This document shows positions 56,400 to 63,629 of a stretch of DNA of 64,000 nt, in pieces (the stretch's first letter is position 1; each line of letters begins with the position of its first letter). Under the pieces are notes generated by a model. It saw only the letters and a list, made by a program, of their open reading frames with translations. It made no database searches and was not told the origin of the DNA. Source of the DNA: Malacoraja senta (lineage: Eukaryota); assembly GCA_038087875.1 (NCBI GenBank), contig CM075988.1, forward strand, positions 7,566,001-7,630,000, read 5' to 3'. The position numbers and the translations under genes are program-made.

Positions 56400-57020
56400 G
56401 CCAAACTCAAGTTCAATGGGTAGAGCAAAGGGAAAGATGGAATATAGATCTCAGCATTGCAGTGCACTTGTTCCAGAGACTAGGTCCAATGTCCACAATG
56501 GGGTAGAAGTGAATCAGAAAGTAGCCTAGCTCATGGAACGACCATTGGGGAGGCTGATAACAGTGGGGAATAAGCTGTATCTGAGTCTGTGGTGCATGCT
56601 TCAAGACTTGTGTATGTTCTGCCCAATGGGAGTGTGAAGAAGTAGACATGACTGGGGTGGAACAAGTCTTTGAATACGTTGACTTGCGTGAGGTATAGAT
56701 GGAGTCAGTGTGGCGAGTCTGGTCTGTGTGATGTACTAGGCTACATCCACGACATTTCTTGCGTTCTTGTACAGAGCTGTTCTCAAACTAAGCTGTGTTG
56801 CAACCGGACAGTATGCTTTCTGTGGCGCATCTGTAAAAGTTGCTAAGCGTCATTGGAGACATGCTGAATTTCGTCAGTCTCCTCAGGAAGTAGAACTGTT
56901 GCCGTGCATTCTTAGTTGTCACTTCAGTGTGGTTGGTACACAACAGATCGTTGGTAATATTTACACCAAGGAATGTGAAGCTCAACCATTTCCACTTCAG
57001 CACCATAGATGCCGATTGGG
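56400..57020 (-). mobile_element. Rex1/Babar LINE fragment
   Basis: FLGVNITNDL...ARQQFYFLRRLTKF...FYRCATESILSGC. Confidence 0.85.
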
Positions 57021-58261
57021 ACTTCACCTGAAGTCAATAACTAGCTGCTTCATCTAGTTTGAAGCTCAGAAAGTCTCGGTCAAAATAAACCCCTCGTCGG
57101 ATGAAGGATCTCAGACCTGCAATGTCAGTGCCTCTTTTCAGTACTTCCAGCATTTTTTCTCTCACTACCTCTTGCTGTCGCAAATGTAGCTGTAACATTA
57201 CTGTCCTGTTGCATTTGCTCGATGATTCCCTTGTCACAGTTGCTAAATATAACCGATGCGATGAAGGGAAAGAGGAGGCCAATGTGCAAATATAATGGTG
57301 TCAAGTGCAGCAGTCAATGAGGCATTCATTGCATCCCAGAATGTCAGCTGCTGTACGGGAGTTGTGCATGGTCTGACATTTGAGATTCTCTTTCTGGTTT
57401 CAACATAGTGGGGGGTGGAGGGGGTCAGTTTGTTGGGAATACAGTGAACTGAATTTACTTTACTCTGCTGCATATCAAACTTGATACAGTTTTATTGCGA
57501 ATTTTGAATGAAAATTTCCTGAAGACAACGATGATCCATTTTCTGGATTGATTGATTGGCCCTGTGCCTTTCCTTAAACTTCTGGCTTCTCTCCTCTCAT
57601 TTAAACCAAGTTATTTTAGGCTCTTATCTTCCTTTGGCTCTGTGTCAACTTTTGTTTTGATTAATGCTTCTATAAAGTGCCTTGGGATTTGTTTTACACA
57701 TTCATGCATGGTTTTGGTGTGAGGTTTTGCCTGCTCTCTCATTCCCTCCTGCCCTCACGGTGGCTACCTGAATGCAATGCAGTTTGCACTGGGCTACTGG
57801 CATCATCGACCAGGGATTCCCAAGAATCGGTGGAGATGTCACACTCTATCAAGAATGCTTTGAGAATATTTTTGCTTGTCTATTTGATAATCTCTTGTCA
57901 TAACACTGCTCAGAATAGAAGAATTGTTTTGGGAGTTGTCACGCAGGTGAAAGTCTTGTCATTTACAATAGAGCTGACTGTGTGTAGTTAGGGCAAAACA
58001 CCAAGTGCTGGAGTAACTCAGCGGATCAGGCACCGTCTGTGGAGGGAATGTAAAGGTGAGGCTTTGGATCGAGCTCCAGTGATTGTAGTTGGGGTAATTA
58101 GCCTCTCAAAGCTGGCCTGGGAGATGTCACTGGTGTTGCTTTACATATTCTCAGAGGATTCGGGAGATTAGGTTTAGGTTTGTTATTGTCACAAGTACTG
58201 ATGTACAGTGAAAAGGTCTGTTTTCCATGCTGCACAATCAAATCCTATAAAACTATACATA

Positions 58262-58634
58262 ATAGAATATGGTCTCCATTTATTGATTTTTTTAAAGGGT
58301 AAATTGGTTCAGCACGGGAATCTGACTGAAATCCGAGCTCAGGATTAGATGAATAGTTTATGCTTTATAACTTACGGACCTATCTCCAAAGTTGTATTAC
58401 TGGTAAATTATTCCATTCTTCTTTTTCATGCCTTTTTTTTATTTTTTATTTCTCACTTTCTATCTCTAAAAAAAAAAAAAACTAAATAGAAGCAGATTTA
58501 ATATATACTGATAAAGGAGGACCGCTATTATTTTGATAGCTGGACTCCCACCTATTAGCAACGTAGGATTGATATATAAGAAATGTTTGTATTATCATAT
58601 GCACATGCTTCTAATAAAAATATATTAAAAAAAA
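58262..58634 (+). mobile_element. 5'-truncated L1-clade 3' end with poly(A) and 13-bp TSD
   Basis: IWSPFIDFF, aataaa and A-run; aaaactatacata at 58249-58261 and 58635-58647. Confidence 0.65.
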
Positions 58635-59704
58635 AAAACTATACATAGACACAATCAACCCATACTCAAGTACAACGGGTGAGTCAGCGGACAGATACAA
58701 AGTGCAGAATATAGTTCTCAGCAACATAGCGCATCAGTTCCAGAGACAAAGTCCAATGTCCACAATCGGGTAGTGGTAACTTGGATAGTACTCGCACTTA
58801 TGGAGGTGCCATTTAGAAACCTGGTGACAGAGGGGTATAAGGTGTTCCTGAGTCTGGTGGTGTGTGCTTTCAACCTTCTTTATCTTCTACACAATGGGAG
58901 CAGGGAAAAGAAAGAATGACTGGGGTGGGACATGTCTTTGACTATGTTTAAAAAAAAAAAGGGCACAGAGTGCTTGAGTACATCATCGGGTCAGGCTGCA
59001 TCTCCGGAGGACATGGATAGGTGACGTTTCAGGTCGGAACCCTTCTTCAGGCCCTTGTTTTTGATTATGGGAGCCTTCTTTATCATGTTGCCTGCTATTC
59101 CAAGCCAGCGTGGTGCAGGTGGAATCAATGGTGGGGACTCTGATGTGTGTGATGGACTCCACAACTCGCTGCAATTTCCTGCCATCTTGTGGAGAGCTAT
59201 TCCCAAACCTAGCTGTGATGATAATTGTAAGTATATTTCTATGGTGCATCTGTAGAAGTTTGTGTGAGCTGGCTTGATTATGTCTATGTAGCATATTATC
59301 TGTTTTGATTGGATAGCATGTGAAACAAAGCTTCTCACTGTACCTCAGTACATGTGCCAATCATAAACCTAAACCTATGGCTCCTGATGTTTAAATATTG
59401 TCAGCTTATCTGGGGGGAGGGGGGGGGGCACTATCTGAGATAGCTGTGTCCTTAAAACCCTCAGCATTAATTGTGGCTCGGCAACACTTGCTGTCGTTCT
59501 ATTTTATCCATCAGGTGAAGGAAAGATTTAAAGAGATATGGGTCAAATGTGATTAAAATGGAAGAATCTTAGAAGTGGGATTTTGTTCAGCAAGTAAAAG
59601 GTGGGCCGAAGGGCCTGTTTTCATGCTGTATGACTATATTCTTCATTCATGTACAAATGATAGTACTGAGGATCATACCATCAAGCAACATTTGACATGA
59701 AACT

Positions 59705-60250
59705 ATTTAGAGATACAGCGCAGAAACAGGCCCTTTGGCCCACTGAGTCCGCCCCAACCAGCAATCCCCGCATGCTAACACTATCCTATACACACTAGGG
59801 ACAATTTACATTTATACCAAGCTATTAGCCTACAAACCTGTGTGTATTTGAAGTGTAAGAGGAAACCGGAGCTTCCTTTGCAGGTCACGGGGAGAACGTA
59901 CAAACTCCATACAGACAGCACTCGTAGTCATCTAGATGTGTGTCAACTTGGAAATGTTTAGTTTAGTTTGGGGATACAGGCCCTTTAGCCCACTGAATCC
60001 ACACTGACCAACAATCACCCGTATACTCGTTCTATATTATCCCAGTTTTGTGTCCGATACACCTGGGACAATTTCCAGAAGCCAATGAACCTACAAACCA
60101 TCATTGGAGCGTCGGGTGAAACTGAGCACCTGGACAAAACCCACAGGGAGAATGTGAAAACTCTGCACAGACAGCATCTGTAGTCAGGATCAAACCCGAG
60201 TTTCTGGCTCTGTGAGGTAGCAACCCTACTATTACGGGAGTGTGCCGCCC
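59705..60250 (-). mobile_element. Two adjacent HE1-type SINE copies (~59705-59930 and ~59955-60250)
   Basis: revcomp of consensus, twice. Confidence 0.8.
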
Positions 60251-60436
60251 ATTAAATTCCATGAGTAACCTACTGATGGTCAAGTCAGAAAGTAATTTTT
60301 GGTTGTGCCATACCGAAAGATTCTGGTTTGGATTCCCGGTCTCAATTACCGATACTCATGATTATGCCAAGAGTATATTTGTCAGCTCAAAATTACACGA
60401 GGCTAAAGTGAGGATAGAGTTGGACTTGACTTGGTT

Positions 60437-60574
60437 CTTCTTCTTGCATATGGCGTGCACAACCTAAAGTTGTAGGACAACTTGTTTTATCTGATCTTAT
60501 TTGATTGTGTACGCCAGGTTGATTGCATTCGTCGAAACAGGGCGGACCACGTGAAGGTTGCAATCTCCCACCCC
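60437..60574 (-). mobile_element. 138-bp ribozyme-headed non-autonomous retroposon with (GAA)n tail and 13-bp TSD
   Basis: acttgacttggtt at 60424-60436 and 60575-60587; minus strand ends TATGCAAGAAGAAG. Confidence 0.85.
60521..60574 (-). ncRNA. Minimal HDV-like self-cleaving ribozyme (54 nt), predicted
   Basis: P1 GGGGUGG/CCGCCCU with G1-U wobble; P2 GAUUGCA/UGCAAUC; P3 ACC/GGU; L3 UUCACGU; reduced P4 with UUCG; J4/2 CGAA. Confidence 0.82.
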
Positions 60575-61408
60575 ACTTGACTTGGTTGATTAGTCTTCTG
60601 TCTGCTTGCCCATAAAGCAACTTCACAGGTCAACCTACAAGGCGGTTATAAATGGACACAGAGAAACTATTGATTATAGTGAGCTCCAACGGGAAATAAC
60701 ACAGAAGAGAAGATTTTCAATCAGGGTAAAATGGTCAAAATGTTGAACTCTTTTACTATTAGCTATGGAACTAGTGCCTGAATTGTTGAAGTCCTGCTGT
60801 ATAGTCTTGCTAAATTAATTGCTTTAAAAAACTGTCACCAGGAGCTTTGTGTGGTGGTGTGGTTTTGACCCACTGATGTGTCTGGTTATATCCATCAAGG
60901 TAATAACCGCATCAGTTTCACATTGCCTCTTTTACAGTAAGCCCTTTTTTGACTGCCTCTCGCATTAATTGTACATTTCCCACCCACAGAGTTTGGAATG
61001 GGAGCTAATTGCCAGACATTGTGTGTATTTTGCATCCTGGTTATTTAAAAAAAACTGCCTCTTAGGATTTAACATTTCCGATTCCACTCCCTGACAATTA
61101 AACTTCATTTTCTCACATTCGGATCTGTCTCCCACTGAGTTGAGTTGAGTTTAGTTTCTTGTCATGTGTACTGAGGTACAGTGAAAAGCTTTTGTTGTGT
61201 GCTAACCAGTCAGCGGAAAGACAACACATGATTACAGTCGAGCCATGAACAGTGTATAGATACATGATATAAAGGGAATAGAGATTTAAAAGAGTAGAGC
61301 AGATCCACTTCTGTGACTGGCACACAAAGAGTCGCCTGGCTTGGGCGCCATCTTGGATCATCCTGAATGGTTTCCAACAACTTGCAACAAACTGCTTTTC
61401 AGTAACTG

Positions 61409-61740
61409 GAGGCATGGTGGCGTAGCGGTAGAGTTACTGCCTTACAGCGCTTGCAGCGCCGGAGACCCGGGTTCGATCCCGACTACGGACGCTGTCTGTA
61501 CGGAGTTTGTACGTTCTCCCCGTGACCTGCGTGGGTTTTCTCCGAGATCTTCGGTTTACTCCCACACTCCAAAGACATACGGGTTTTTAGGTTAATTGGC
61601 TTGGATTTGTATACTTGGTATAAGTGTAAATTGTCCCTTGTGTGTGTAGGATAATGTTAATGTGTGGGGATTGCTGGTCTTTGTGGACTCGGTGGGCCGA
61701 AGGGCCTGTTTCCCCGTTGTATCTCTAAACTAAACTAAAC
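61409..61740 (+). mobile_element. HE1-type V-SINE, full length
   Basis: head, V-domain, tail. Confidence 0.9.
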
Positions 61741-61851
61741 TGACTGCTTGATCTTCTTATGGATAGACCGATTCGTTATCGACCTTGCTTCAATTAACGG
61801 TGTGTAATACTGAGTTTCAGTGTCTGGGTGCCTGTTAATTGTAAGACCATG

Positions 61852-62346
61852 GCTCCCATCCTCGCCACTTTCTACAGAAGCACAATTGAGTCGGTCATGA
61901 CCGGCTGTATCTCTACGTGGTGCGGCAGCTGTACAGCTGCAGACTGGAAGTGCCTTCAGAGAGTGGTGAGGACAGCGGAAAAAATCATTGGGACTTCTCT
62001 TCCTTCCATCATGGACATGGGGTACAAGCGCTGTCTGAGTAGAGCTAAGGGCATTACCAAAGCCCCCACACACCCACAATTTGGACTGTTTATACTGCTT
62101 AACTCTGGGAGGAGGTACCGCAGCATGAAGAGCGGGACAACCAGGTTCTGCAACAGCTTCATCCCCCAGGCCATAAGATTATTGAACAATCAATTAAACC
62201 GAGGCTAGAACTTTTTAAATATCGACACTTCTAAAAAAAAAATAACTGGAGAGTCAAATGCAACGAAATTTCGTTCTAGGTGCACTGTGTATAGGTGTAT
62301 ATCTGAATGACAATAAAGTTTTCATTCATTCATTCATTCATTCATT
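61852..62346 (+). mobile_element. Rex1/Babar LINE 3' end, uninterrupted ORF C-terminus and (ttca)n tail
   Basis: FYRSTIESVMTGCISTWCGSC...LQRVVRTAEKIIG...SGRRYRSMKSGTTRFCNSFIPQAIRLLN. Confidence 0.88.
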
Positions 62347-62659
62347 TCTTGTTTGACCTTCAAGATGATATTGCTGCATTTGTTTAGAACTTGTGTAAAC
62401 TTAATCTAGAAAATTTTAAAATCTGGAAAATTGAGACATATATAACTAATATTCCTCTCCCACTCTCTTCCTGCATTACCAGTTCCTAGTTTAGCAAATT
62501 AGATTCTTGCATCTTTTCTAAATTGTCAGAAATGTCCTGACCTGAAACTTCACCTGCCCATTCATCTCCACAGATGTTGCCTGACCTGCTGAGTTTCTCC
62601 AGAACATTGTGTTTTCGCTCAAGTTTCCAGCTTCTGGAGTTCCTTGTACCTCTCTGGCA

Positions 62660-62940
62660 GGTGTCGGGCCACAGCTGGTAGAGCTGCAGCCTCACAGTGC
62701 CACAATCCTGACCTCGGGTGCTGTCTGTGTGGAGTTTGCACGTTCTCCCTGTGACCGTGTGGGTTTCCTCCGGGTGCTCCAGTTCCCTCCCACATCCCGA
62801 AGACGTGTAGGTTTGTAGGTTAATTGGCTTCTGTAAATTGCCCCCAAGTGTGTAGGGAGTAGATGTGAATGAGGGATAACATAGATCTAGTGTGCCCAGG
62901 TGATCGATGGCGGGCCCAAGGGCCTGTTTCCATGCAGTTT
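62660..62940 (+). mobile_element. HE1-type V-SINE
   Basis: partial head, V-domain, tail. Confidence 0.8.
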
Positions 62941-63629
62941 CTTTCTCAACTCCAAATCTCTTTGCTGTGGTAGCGGTAATACATGTACTGATTCACACTT
63001 TCCTCACTGCTATATAGACCAGGACAAGCTAGGCTTTCTTGCTCTTCCCCTCCCTGAAAATCACCTTGACATGCAAGAGCAATCAGAGGCTGATTACTGT
63101 GTGTTTTGTGATGGGAGTGGAGTGTTTATGCCTTGTACTAAGATTTTGATCTTTAATTTTTTTCCTTTGGTCCCATTCCATCAGGCTGACCTTTTCAAAC
63201 TATAAATATCACTGTGCATGGCAGCAGCCAAAGAGAAAATAATGTCTGTCGTCAGCAGCGAGAGGTCAAATAATTATTCAACAGTTGCGACCTAACTTCT
63301 GAACAACTTCTGCTGTTCCAGCTTTAATAAAGAATCGATCTGTCTTCGCTGGTTCCAACTTGAGAAAAGTTTCAGAAACACCCTGTCAAATCTAGTAGCG
63401 TTTCGTTTCATCCCCATTGGCAAGATGATAGATGCCCTCGAAATTATTTCATCACTCTTGTTGCGGGCAGTGGACAGAGTTGAGATTAATGGGCCTGTTC
63501 ACCGTAAGTCAAAGGCATAACAACCCTCTGTCCACCTCGCCTAGATCTATGAATGTTGGCCTGTGTGCAGCCAATGCTAGCTTCATTGCACTGAAGGTGT
63601 CAATATGGTGAGCTTCGTTGGAAATGCAA

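What the first reader, a model, noticed from the sequence alone, without database searches (positions are those of the whole stretch)
60437..60574. SINE-sized retroposon headed by a complete minimal HDV-like ribozyme
Seen: the minus strand reads GGGGUGG-GA-GAUUGCA-ACC-UUCACGU-GGU-CCGCCCU-G-UUUCGA-CGAA-UGCAAUC. This gives every element of the HDV double pseudoknot in order: 7-bp P1 opening with a G-U wobble, 7-bp P2, 3-bp P3 with a 7-nt loop, a single-G P1.1, P4 reduced to a UUCG stub, and J4/2 CGAA with the catalytic C. G1 (60574) directly abuts one copy of a 13-bp TSD, so the element starts exactly at the predicted cleavage site. There is no tRNA head or A/B box. Established: HDV-like ribozymes define the 5' ends of R2, RTE and L1Tc-type non-LTR elements and of short derivatives such as R2 SIDEs. 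Inference: a promoter-less short retroposon that frees its 5' end from host read-through transcripts. I do not know of a described elasmobranch family like this but cannot check databases.
Basis: partly seen in the sequence, partly recalled or inferred. Interest (0 to 1): 0.92.

Follow-up and report, generated by a model that had tools for sequence, protein, structure and literature searches.

The report
Short retroposon headed by minimal HDV-like ribozyme
A 138-base mobile element present in thousands of copies begins exactly at the predicted cut site of a very small HDV-type self-cutting RNA fold, a known trick of some jumping genes seen here in an unusually stripped-down form.

Summary
The minus strand 60574-60437 is a 138-nt retroposon between 13-bp target-site duplications. 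It ends in (AAG)n. The genome holds 7,974 matches to its 31-nt core.

Copies start at G1, with unrelated DNA upstream.

The first 54 nt fit the HDV double pseudoknot. The decisive evidence is in the same genome: at least five other retroelement families carry heads that pass Rfam's CPEB3_ribozyme cut-off (37-64 bits). One is a 3.1-kb endonuclease/reverse-transcriptase LINE with an (AAG)n tail.

Against these heads, the element's P1, P2 and P3 differ by compensatory changes. L3, the G after P1 and the first and last two bases of J4/2 (C-N-A-A) stay fixed (89% of cells paired against 36-44% when slid; 18 of 26 pairs covary). A model built without the element finds its head as the only significant hit in the window (26.1 bits, E 1.5e-4).

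Three things are not shown:
- Catalysis was not tested.
- One polyA RNA run shows read-through at G1 and no pile-up of starts.
- No LINE shares the element's 3' domain.

Verdict: a new variant of a known kind, a P4-less HDV-like head on a dispersed, high-copy non-autonomous element.

The parts
60437..60574 (-). Whole 138-nt non-autonomous retroposon copy. It carries 4 private differences from the family majority, at 60462, 60487, 60491 and 60510.
   Evidence: table 3 shows these four letters differing in 94-100 % of reads or contig depth.
60575..60587 (-). Upstream copy of the 13-bp target-site duplication AACCAAGTCAAGT
   Evidence: (L001).
60424..60436 (-). Downstream copy of the target-site duplication
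60521..60574 (-). 54-nt HDV-like (CPEB3-type) ribozyme head lacking P4; the predicted cleavage is 5' of G1 = 60574
60568..60574 (-). P1 5' strand GGGGUGG (nt 1-7). It pairs with 60539-60545; G1.U36 is the base pair at the cleavage site.
   Evidence: helix 1: pairs 5-32, 6-31 and 7-30 change on both sides between families.
60559..60565 (-). P2 5' strand GAUUGCA (nt 10-16). It pairs with 60521-60527 (pseudoknot).
   Evidence: helix 2: 6 of 7 pairs have changes on both sides; 95.2 % of cells paired.
60546..60558 (-). P3 (ACC/GGU, 3 bp) enclosing L3 UUCACGU (nt 17-29). C22 (60553) pairs with G37 (60538) as P1.1.
   Evidence: T20, T21, C22, C24 and T26 are invariant. helices 3 and 4. L3 is identical to the Rfam CPEB3 consensus.
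60539..60545 (-). P1 3' strand CCGCCCU (nt 30-36)
60532..60538 (-). G37 (P1.1), U38, and a 5-nt stub UUCGA in place of P4 (nt 37-43)
   Evidence: a 24-column gap where the P4-bearing families carry their helix.
60528..60531 (-). J4/2 CGAA. C44 (60531) sits at the place of the catalytic cytosine.
   Evidence: C44 and A47 at least 90 % conserved; A46 invariant.
60521..60527 (-). P2 3' strand UGCAAUC (nt 48-54)
60446..60520 (-). Body (nt 55-129). A long irregular hairpin (about nt 59-72 with 111-123) encloses a small hairpin (nt 94-106). It is a candidate recognition structure for the reverse transcriptase.
   Evidence: the 84-nt 3' part folds at -20.2 kcal/mol, z -3.61, with 0 of 200 shuffles as stable.
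60437..60445 (-). (AAG)3 tail; the number of repeats varies between copies
   Evidence: for example, L014 has about 13 extra AAG.

Best explanation
This is one copy of a high-copy, non-autonomous non-LTR retroposon of 138 nt. It has three parts: a 54-nt head, an 84-nt structured body and an (AAG)n tail.

The head is a P4-less homologue of the HDV/CPEB3-type self-cleaving ribozymes that head an RTE-like LINE and several other retroelement families in the same genome.

Proposed cycle:
1. A copy lying inside any host transcription unit is read through.
2. The head folds into the nested double pseudoknot and cuts 5' of G1. This discards upstream host RNA and leaves an RNA that begins at G1.
3. A LINE-encoded endonuclease/reverse transcriptase uses the 3' hairpin and (AAG)n end for target-primed reverse transcription.
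4. The new copy has a 7-15 bp target-site duplication, a tail of variable length and an intact ribozyme.

Shown here: the family, its boundaries, the fold's covariation, homology to Rfam-passing ribozymes, and a LINE with the same kind of head, tail and TSD.

Inferred: catalysis by the P4-less head, dependence on read-through transcription, and which LINE supplies the enzyme.
For: Family and TPRT marks:
- 7,974 core matches, reversed control 0.
- 40 of 40 scored matches are near full length at 96-100 %.
- TSDs were found in 22 of 30 copies.
- Tails vary in length, and 5'-truncated copies have their own TSDs.

5' end at G1:
- 30 of 30 full-length loci.
- Of 20 copies chosen by core only, 16 begin with G at G1 and 0 extend upstream. 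Their upstream 20 nt are 26 % alike on average.
- In contigs of three runs the homology ends at 60573-60577. This is seen in 290, 537 and 55 of the loose-end records shown.

Fold and homology:
- The two best Rfam hits on the 111-nt stretch are CPEB3_ribozyme and HDV-F-prausnitzii. Both span the full model with G1 in register.
- RF00622 run on the whole genome gives 39 of 59 scored hits over the cut-off. 7 of 7 re-scanned loci pass.
- Alignment of 20 heads and pair counts: 89.3 % of cells paired against 36-44 % when slid. 18 of 26 pairs change on both sides, against 1-6 when slid. 0 of 500 shuffles reach the observed values.
- A covariance model built from the 17 other heads scores this head 26.1 bits, E 1.5e-4, end to end. 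The next hit in the window scores 10.4 bits.
- P4-less HDV-like ribozymes that self-cleave in vitro are in print (preprint passages).

Enzyme source:
- The LINE is 3,138 nt and begins at the G1 of its own ribozyme. It has an open frame of 940 aa (RVT_1 2.5e-32, Exo_endo_phos_2 1.4e-8).
- It ends in ACACGAAAAG(AAG)n with an 11-bp TSD.
- It has 211 3' ends, at least 100 of them identical.
- One subfamily of the short element ends in CACACGAAAGAAGAAG.
Against: - No cleavage was measured.
- Raw polyA RNA reads of run X24 show no place where molecules begin at G1 (table 6: none). 226 reads run on past G1 into unlike flanks, at a depth of about 232. 96 % of the 545 laid reads continue into flanks. 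So most copies in steady-state polyA RNA are uncut. The caveats are mixed orientation (about 40/60), copies that are mostly mutated, another coded organism, and a threshold of one fifth of the depth.
- The head fails Rfam's cut-off (15 bits against 35). It gave no hit at all in a 5-kb scan.
- The nested-only fold is no more stable than shuffles (z +0.92). The same is true of a head that passes Rfam (z -0.61).
- P4 is missing, which could make the fold slow or inactive.
- No element shares the last 28, 45 or 84 nt of the body at up to 2 mismatches. No P4-bearing version of this head was found either.
- blastn finds nothing but AAG repeats between the element and the LINE. The partner is therefore only suggested.
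Confidence: 0.7

Rival explanations
1. The head is a true descendant of an HDV-like ribozyme, but loss of P4 has left it inactive or nearly so. The exact G1 start would then come from transcription initiation directed by the head itself, acting as an internal promoter. Pr77 of L1Tc is both promoter and ribozyme in this way.
For: - There is no pile-up of read starts at G1, and nearly all RNA reads read through.
- P4 is absent.
- The sense strand has no TTTT, so RNA polymerase III could pass through it.
- A dual promoter/ribozyme head is in print for L1Tc and NARTc (abstract listing; passages).
Against: - No A or B box is found at up to 2 mismatches. 12-24 % of shuffles reach that level.
- Variants at 10 % or more inside the head sit in linkers or keep pairing: G8A, C31U (G.U), G32A (U-A), G42A, and G45U/A. 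C44U reaches 10 % only in the RNA run and is 1-3 % in contig depth (table 3).
- A second P4-less family passes Rfam's cut-off.
- P4-less HDV-like ribozymes cleave in vitro.
Confidence: 0.17
2. The head is kept mainly for a role other than cutting. It could be a binding site for the LINE protein at the RNA 5' end, or a help to second-strand or 5' junction formation. Cleavage would be incidental.
For: A review states that the R2 protein binds a pseudoknot within its HDV-like 5' region, and that such heads may act like an IRES (passages). The head is unchanged across subfamilies that differ in the body.
Against: - The short element encodes nothing, so an IRES role is moot.
- The coincidence of the predicted cleavage site with the element's first base is what cutting predicts. 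A binding role does not require it.
- Protein binding was not tested here.
Confidence: 0.1
3. The fit to the HDV fold is chance in an ordinary repeat.
For: Rfam's cut-off is not met. The nested fold has an unremarkable energy.
Against: - The descriptor gives 1 hit in the window and 0 in 20 shuffled windows.
- An independent covariance model gives E 1.5e-4.
- Compensatory changes occur in 18 of 26 pairs.
- L3, the G after P1 and CGAA are identical to the Rfam CPEB3 consensus.
Confidence: 0.01

Closest known systems
R2 SIDEs and R2/R1 hybrid SIDEs of Drosophila (Eickbush and Eickbush 2012, PMC3414825; abstract read)
   Same: A short non-autonomous element made of an HDV-like ribozyme head joined to a 3' end that a LINE enzyme recognises. 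It is copied by target-primed reverse transcription.
   Different: SIDEs insert only in rDNA, are rare, and are plain internal deletions of a known parent. This family is dispersed, has about 8,000 head-bearing copies, has a 54-nt P4-less head, and no parent shares its P1-P3 or its body.
HDV-like ribozymes at the 5' end of RTE and baggins LINEs (Ruminski et al. 2011; not held, known to me from review passages and from recall)
   Same: Promoter-less LINEs are freed from co-transcripts by a 5' HDV-like ribozyme. The LINE found here fits this description, and the review says some non-autonomous SINEs do the same.
   Different: The reviewed cases carry P4. The animal group here and the P4-less head are not mentioned in anything I could read.
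L1Tc / NARTc Pr77 head of trypanosomes (PMC3185411, PMC3383444 from listings; PMC4035085 abstract)
   Same: A LINE and its short non-autonomous partner share a 77-nt HDV-like ribozyme at the first base of the element.
   Different: Pr77 is also an internal promoter, and the short partner shares its head sequence with the LINE. Here the heads of the LINE and the short element differ throughout P1-P3.
Mammalian CPEB3 ribozyme, Rfam RF00622
   Same: The geometry is identical: 7-2-7-3-7-3-7 followed by GU. L3 UUCACGU, CCCUGU and CGAAU are the same as the Rfam consensus.
   Different: The CPEB3 ribozyme is single-copy, intronic, has P4, and is described as mammalian (passages). This head scores 15 bits, below the cut-off of 35.
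Minimal HDV-like ribozymes and theta ribozymes of gut phages (preprint 10.1101/2023.06.13.544163; passages)
   Same: Natural HDV-like ribozymes that lack P4 and still self-cleave in vitro.
   Different: They are reported there only from bacteriophage genomes, next to tRNAs. This one is on a eukaryotic retroposon. Sequence relatedness between the two was not tested.
Ribozyme-bearing short retroposons with other folds: the hammerhead in schistosome SINE-like repeats, and twister variants in S. mansoni non-LTR elements (PMC8501958 from the listing; review passage)
   Same: A self-cleaving RNA built into a short or non-LTR retroelement and proposed to process its transcript.
   Different: These use a different ribozyme class.

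Membership tests
HDV-like self-cleaving ribozyme (nested double pseudoknot) | P1 helix beginning at the cleavage-site nucleotide, with a G.U pair at its base | tested here: met
   P1 is 7 bp, G1.U36 to G7-C30. Pairs 5-32, 6-31 and 7-30 change on both sides between families.
HDV-like self-cleaving ribozyme (nested double pseudoknot) | P2 pseudoknot helix closing the fold | tested here: met
   7 of 7 pairs form in this copy. 6 of 7 pairs show compensatory change, and 95.2 % of cells are paired.
HDV-like self-cleaving ribozyme (nested double pseudoknot) | 3-bp P3 with a 7-nt L3, and P1.1 between an L3 cytosine and the G after P1 | tested here: met
   P3 covaries in 2 of 3 pairs. C22-G37 is present in 18 of 18 distinct sequences; because it never varies, that says nothing about pairing.
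HDV-like self-cleaving ribozyme (nested double pseudoknot) | P4 helix | tested here: not met
   A 5-nt stub stands where the other families have 4-8 bp. P4-less natural ribozymes of this class are in print.
HDV-like self-cleaving ribozyme (nested double pseudoknot) | Cytosine in J4/2 at the catalytic place | tested here: met
   C44 = 60531. This column is at least 90 % conserved over 20 heads.
HDV-like self-cleaving ribozyme (nested double pseudoknot) | Site-specific self-cleavage 5' of G1 | not testable with these tools
   The only indirect look was one polyA RNA run, which showed no pile-up of starts at G1.
Rfam RF00622 CPEB3_ribozyme | Score at or above the gathering cut-off of 35 bits | tested here: not met
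   15.0 bits, E 0.087 on 111 nt; no hit in the 5-kb or whole-window scans. Paralogous heads in the genome score 37-64 bits.
SINE in the strict sense (head derived from tRNA, 7SL or 5S with an internal pol III promoter) | A and B boxes or another pol III gene head | tested here: not met
   The best matches have 3 mismatches each, and none has 2 or fewer (motifs recalled). No Rfam tRNA, 7SL or 5S hit.
SIDE (internally deleted derivative of a LINE) | Head and 3' end both traceable to one parent LINE | tested here: inconclusive
   The head is homologous to that of the LINE found here, but P1-P3 differ. The body has no similarity to it. Only the terminal ACACGAAA plus (AAG)n is shared with one subfamily. 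Other LINE families were not examined.
Non-LTR retroposon copied by target-primed reverse transcription | Variable target-site duplications, a 3' simple-repeat tail of variable length, and 5'-truncated copies | tested here: met

The most novel reading that the evidence does not exclude
The P4-less 54-nt head is an active ribozyme. It would be the first natural minimal HDV-like ribozyme in a eukaryote, and it would drive the spread of about 8,000 copies.

The wider set of CPEB3-type heads on living retroelements in this genome marks the lineage from which the mammalian CPEB3 intronic ribozyme was captured. One of these families matches the Rfam 'mammalian' consensus even inside P4.
Probability: 0.3. 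Interest if true: 0.8.

Novelty: new variant of a known kind. Interest (0 to 1): 0.6.

Why it matters
HDV-like ribozymes at the 5' ends of non-LTR elements are established, so the principle is not new. Three things here would interest specialists.

1. The head is a natural head of only 54 nt without P4, on a eukaryotic element that reached thousands of copies. In the text I could read, P4-less forms are reported only from phages. If active, it sets a lower size limit for a ribozyme that sustains retrotransposition in an animal.

2. Several retroelement families in one genome carry heads that pass the Rfam model named 'mammalian CPEB3 ribozyme'. That makes the origin of the mammalian intronic ribozyme testable by comparison.

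3. Thousands of such heads inside host transcripts could cut host RNAs. The one RNA run examined argues that most copies do not.

Tried and rejected
- **Rfam scans.** The E-value scan of 58000-63000 gave 0 hits. The gathering scan of the whole window gave 0 hits. Only the 111-nt scan showed the weak HDV-class hits.
- **Nested folding of the head.** The MFE structure is P1+P3, but z is +0.92. This test does not discriminate, because a head that passes Rfam gives z -0.61.
- **Search for a parent or partner.** I used IUPAC patterns that demand family sequence next to non-family letters. These covered the head with another continuation (37 matches), the last 45 nt (60 matches), the whole body (28 matches), the last 28 nt (41 matches) and the head with another P4 region (36 matches). 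The matches are mostly indel or deletion variants and truncated copies. A few run on into unrelated sequence that I did not explain. No upstream or downstream sequence recurs apart from two pairs of duplicate loci, and none looks like a LINE.
- **(AAG)n tails in held DNA.** A scan of about 340 kb found 11 non-family (AAG)n sites and no recurrent family.
- **Subfamily comparison, head against body** (1 of 54 against 12 of 84 positions, Fisher p 0.016). I reject this result. The 6 copies had been picked by patterns that select deletions, and 8 of the 12 differences are one deletion.
- **Sequencing-run search.** No RNA holder was listed.
- **Earlier findings of this scan.** Nothing for this genome or this sequence.
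- **Literature searches.** One search was badly framed and returned only fish papers. Searches found no paper on HDV-like heads of shark, skate or other cartilaginous-fish retroposons. Ruminski 2011 and Webb 2009 are not held, so their lists of species and any SINE cases were not seen. Supplements were not opened.
- **Taxon.** The taxon of the genome was not checked.

Full report
**1. What is in the sequence**

Read on the minus strand, 60574..60437 is a 138-nt unit. It is flanked by two copies of AACCAAGTCAAGT, at 60587-60575 and 60436-60424.

| Element | Sequence | nt |
|---|---|---|
| P1 5' strand | GGGGUGG | 1-7 |
| J1/2 | GA | 8-9 |
| P2 5' strand | GAUUGCA | 10-16 |
| P3 5' strand | ACC | 17-19 |
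| L3 | UUCACGU | 20-26 |
| P3 3' strand | GGU | 27-29 |
| P1 3' strand | CCGCCCU | 30-36 |
| P1.1 partner, then U | G, U | 37, 38 |
| stub in place of P4 | UUCGA | 39-43 |
| J4/2 | CGAA | 44-47 |
| P2 3' strand | UGCAAUC | 48-54 |

Three checks show this is not chance:
- The first 37 nt occur once in the window at up to 3 mismatches, and in none of 100 shuffles.
- A generic HDV descriptor of my own matches only this site on both strands of the window. It matches nothing in 20 block-shuffled windows.
- No A or B box is present at up to 2 mismatches (motifs recalled).

**2. It is a retroposon family**

The window lies in a 1.94-Gb assembly.

Copy number and identity:
- The 138 nt gave 1,406 first-look candidates. 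All 40 scored were near full length at 96-100 %.
- The 31-nt core (nt 10-40) has 7,974 matches at up to 2 mismatches, and 0 for the reversed control.

Boundaries and tails:
- In 30 of 30 fetched full-length loci, the homology starts at the GGGG. The upstream DNA is unrelated and the (AAG)n tail varies in length.
- A script found target-site duplications of 7-20 bp (mode 11-13) in 22 of 30. By eye, several of the other 8 look like degenerate duplications.

That sample was chosen for full length, so I took a second one: the first 20 exact-core matches on contig 1.
- 16 begin with G at G1. Five of these have a 1-nt indel or a substitution in the first 9 nt.
- 3 have another base at position 1.
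- 1 lacks the first 4-5 nt.
- None continues upstream.
- The 20 nt upstream are 26 % alike on average.

Other features of the family:
- Copies truncated at the 5' end, with their own duplications, exist.
- Subfamilies are visible: G8A, G45U (J4/2 CUAA), T59C, a deletion of nt 55-72, and CATATGC against CATACGC.
- Contigs of three further runs and raw reads of a fourth all hold the family at high depth. They come from four differently coded organisms. Homology ends at 60573-60577 and at 60435-60436, and the loose ends are heterogeneous.
- In that call, this very insertion is seen with both junctions in run X19, and with the 5' junction in X18.

**3. Is the head an HDV-like ribozyme?**

Rfam alone does not say so:
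- No hit in a 5-kb scan or in the whole window.
- On 111 nt, the two best of three weak hits are CPEB3_ribozyme (15.0 bits, E 0.087, cut-off 35) and HDV-F-prausnitzii (14.4 bits, E 0.94). Both span the full model with G1 at the model's cleavage site. UUCACGU, CCCUGU and CGAAU are identical to the CPEB3 consensus.

The decisive step was to run RF00622 on the whole genome. Of 59 scored candidates, 39 pass the cut-off, the best at 64.2 bits. I fetched 30 of them. They fall into at least five families that begin at the ribozyme's first base, each copy with a different upstream flank. All 7 re-scanned representatives pass:

| Family | Score (bits) |
|---|---|
| 1 | 59.7 |
| 2 | 59.7 |
| 4 | 51.4 and 50.6 |
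| 5 | 45.8 |
| 3 | 43.7 and 37.2 |

Family 3 also lacks P4.

All families share the geometry 7-2-7-3-7-3-7 followed by GU, so 20 heads align without gaps up to P4. On that alignment the full pseudoknotted structure gives:
- 89.3 % of cells paired, against 36-44 % when the partners are slid.
- 18 of 26 pairs with changes on both sides, against 1-6 when slid.
- 0 of 500 shuffles as good.
- P2 has 6 of 7 compensatory pairs.

The sequences within a family are close copies. The pair counts, not the cell counts, are therefore the robust figure.

A covariance model was built from the 17 heads of the other families only, using P2+P3+P4. It was run with filters off over the window. It finds 60574-60521 end to end at 26.1 bits, E 1.5e-4 (E-values are rough). 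The next best hit is 10.4 bits, E 1.8.

I conclude that the head is a homologue of these ribozymes in which P4 is replaced by a 5-nt stub.

**4. A possible enzyme source**

Family 1 is a LINE. One copy (L092 plus L101) runs 3,138 nt from its ribozyme G1 to ...ACACGAAAAG(AAG)3, between 11-bp duplications.
- It has an open frame of 940 aa, followed after one stop by 88 aa more.
- Pfam finds RVT_1 (2.5e-32) and Exo_endo_phos_2 (1.4e-8).
- The layout is single-frame, with the endonuclease first, in about 3.1 kb. That looks like the RTE group. The assignment is from recall of RTE anatomy, not from a tree.
- Its 3' end occurs 211 times at up to 3 mismatches, with at least 100 exact matches.
- Four heads have a 3' end about 3.1 kb downstream.

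This LINE and the short element share the kind of head, the (AAG)n tail and the duplication length. One subfamily of the short element ends in CACACGAAAGAAGAAG, close to the LINE's end. Beyond that there is no similarity.

No element in the genome shares the short element's last 28, 45 or 84 nt, or its head with a different continuation or P4 region, at up to 2 mismatches.

The body folds into a long hairpin (z -3.61, 0 of 200 shuffles as stable), as expected for an RNA that an enzyme must recognise. The partner is suggested, not shown.

**5. RNA evidence**

Only one raw-read RNA run could be laid: X24, polyA, paired, from a coded organism not shown to be the source species.
- 545 reads matched the element. 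541 matched only in part, and 96 % run on into unlike sequence.
- At G1, 226 reads continue upstream at a depth of about 232.
- The tool lists no place where molecules begin or end.
- Both read orientations are present (about 40/60).

So in steady-state polyA RNA, the great majority of copies are uncut parts of longer transcripts. This counts against efficient cleavage by most genomic copies. It does not test the few unmutated source copies, or RNAs without a polyA tail. Ends below one fifth of the depth would not be listed.

C44U is seen in 44 of 389 reads in that run, but at 1-3 % of contig depth in the other runs. The two measures and the organisms differ, so I draw nothing from it.

**6. 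Mechanism proposed**

- Read-through transcription from host promoters (inferred).
- Folding and cleavage 5' of G1 (inferred from homology, from covariation, and from the coincidence of the element's 5' end with the cleavage site).
- Use of the hairpin and (AAG)n end by a LINE enzyme (inferred).
- Insertion with a duplication and a variable tail (shown by the copies).

Because the cut is upstream of the fold, each new copy carries a whole head. This is why many loci could act as sources.

Variants that reach 10 % of reads or depth within the head all fall in linkers or keep pairing: G8A, C31U giving G.U, G32A giving U-A, G42A, and G45U/A. The one exception is C44U, which is low in contigs. The density of variant sites is the same in head and body (6 of 54 against 9 of 84). 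This is only a qualitative hint of constraint.

**7. Rivals**

- A dead relic whose 5' end is set by an internal promoter, as in Pr77. No pol III boxes argue against it. The RNA result is compatible with it.
- A head kept for protein binding. This was not tested.
- Chance. This is excluded.

**8. Comparison with what is known**

The principle is in print. [quoted passage not shown]

R2 SIDEs (abstract) and L1Tc/NARTc (abstract) are the closest described short elements.

P4-less HDV-like ribozymes are described from metagenomes and phages. There they are said to have been detected exclusively in phage genomes (preprint passages).

The CPEB3 ribozyme is described as mammalian (passages). HDV-like ribozymes are known from lamprey and lancelet (passage).

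My searches found no paper on such heads in cartilaginous-fish retroposons. Ruminski 2011 and Webb 2009 could not be read. Dfam and Repbase are not available here.

The element is not a SINE in the strict sense, because it has no pol III head. It is not shown to be a SIDE, because no parent was found.

**9. Verdict**

I file it as a new variant of a known kind: a dispersed, high-copy, non-autonomous non-LTR retroposon with a minimal, P4-less, CPEB3-type HDV-like head. Catalysis and the partner LINE remain open. Interest 0.6.

Noticed in passing
L097:301-354 (-), L099:108-161 (+), L119-L121; genome places listed: There is a second short family with a P4-less head (family 3). Its head passes Rfam's CPEB3 cut-off without P4 (43.7 and 37.2 bits). 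In L097 and L099 the unit appears to be about 190 nt and to end in ...GATAAGAAG, between duplications of about 11 bp (read by eye). Its P1 fits best as 6 bp, without the G.U base pair.
   Followed up: partly
L100, L107, L109, L115, L117 (family 4): These repeat-borne heads match the Rfam 'mammalian CPEB3 ribozyme' consensus even inside P4 (CAGAUUCU..GAAUCUG) and score 39-51 bits. This bears on where the mammalian intronic ribozyme came from. The rest of the element was not examined.
   Followed up: partly
L106 (G000:C8:937555-937795, minus strand): One LINE head is preceded by several tandem partial repeats of its own first ~26-31 nt (the P1 3' end through P3/L3 segment) before the complete ribozyme. 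This may be a trace of template slippage or jumping at the RNA 5' end during reverse transcription.
   Followed up: no
L092+L101 and one search places: The family-1 LINE looks young. At least 100 of its 211 3' ends are identical over 33 nt. Several copies have head and tail about 3.1 kb apart. The one copy I read has a single in-frame stop near the end of its frame.
   Followed up: partly
L140 and L141 (contig 1, 6.35 and 6.55 Mb): Two copies share 75 % of the 20 nt upstream of G1. This suggests insertion into copies of another repeat, or a duplication. All other pairs are at chance level.
   Followed up: no
window 60531 (C44), table 3: The change of the putative catalytic C to U is seen in about 11 % of RNA reads of run X24, but at 1-3 % of contig depth in three other runs. 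The measures and organisms differ, so this is only a lead. Dead heads may be enriched in uncut RNA.
   Followed up: no
window 56767-63205: Eight ORFs of 96-126 aa lie around the element, and a (TTCA)6.5 repeat lies at 62321-62346. None was examined, and no gene context was established for this copy.
   Followed up: no
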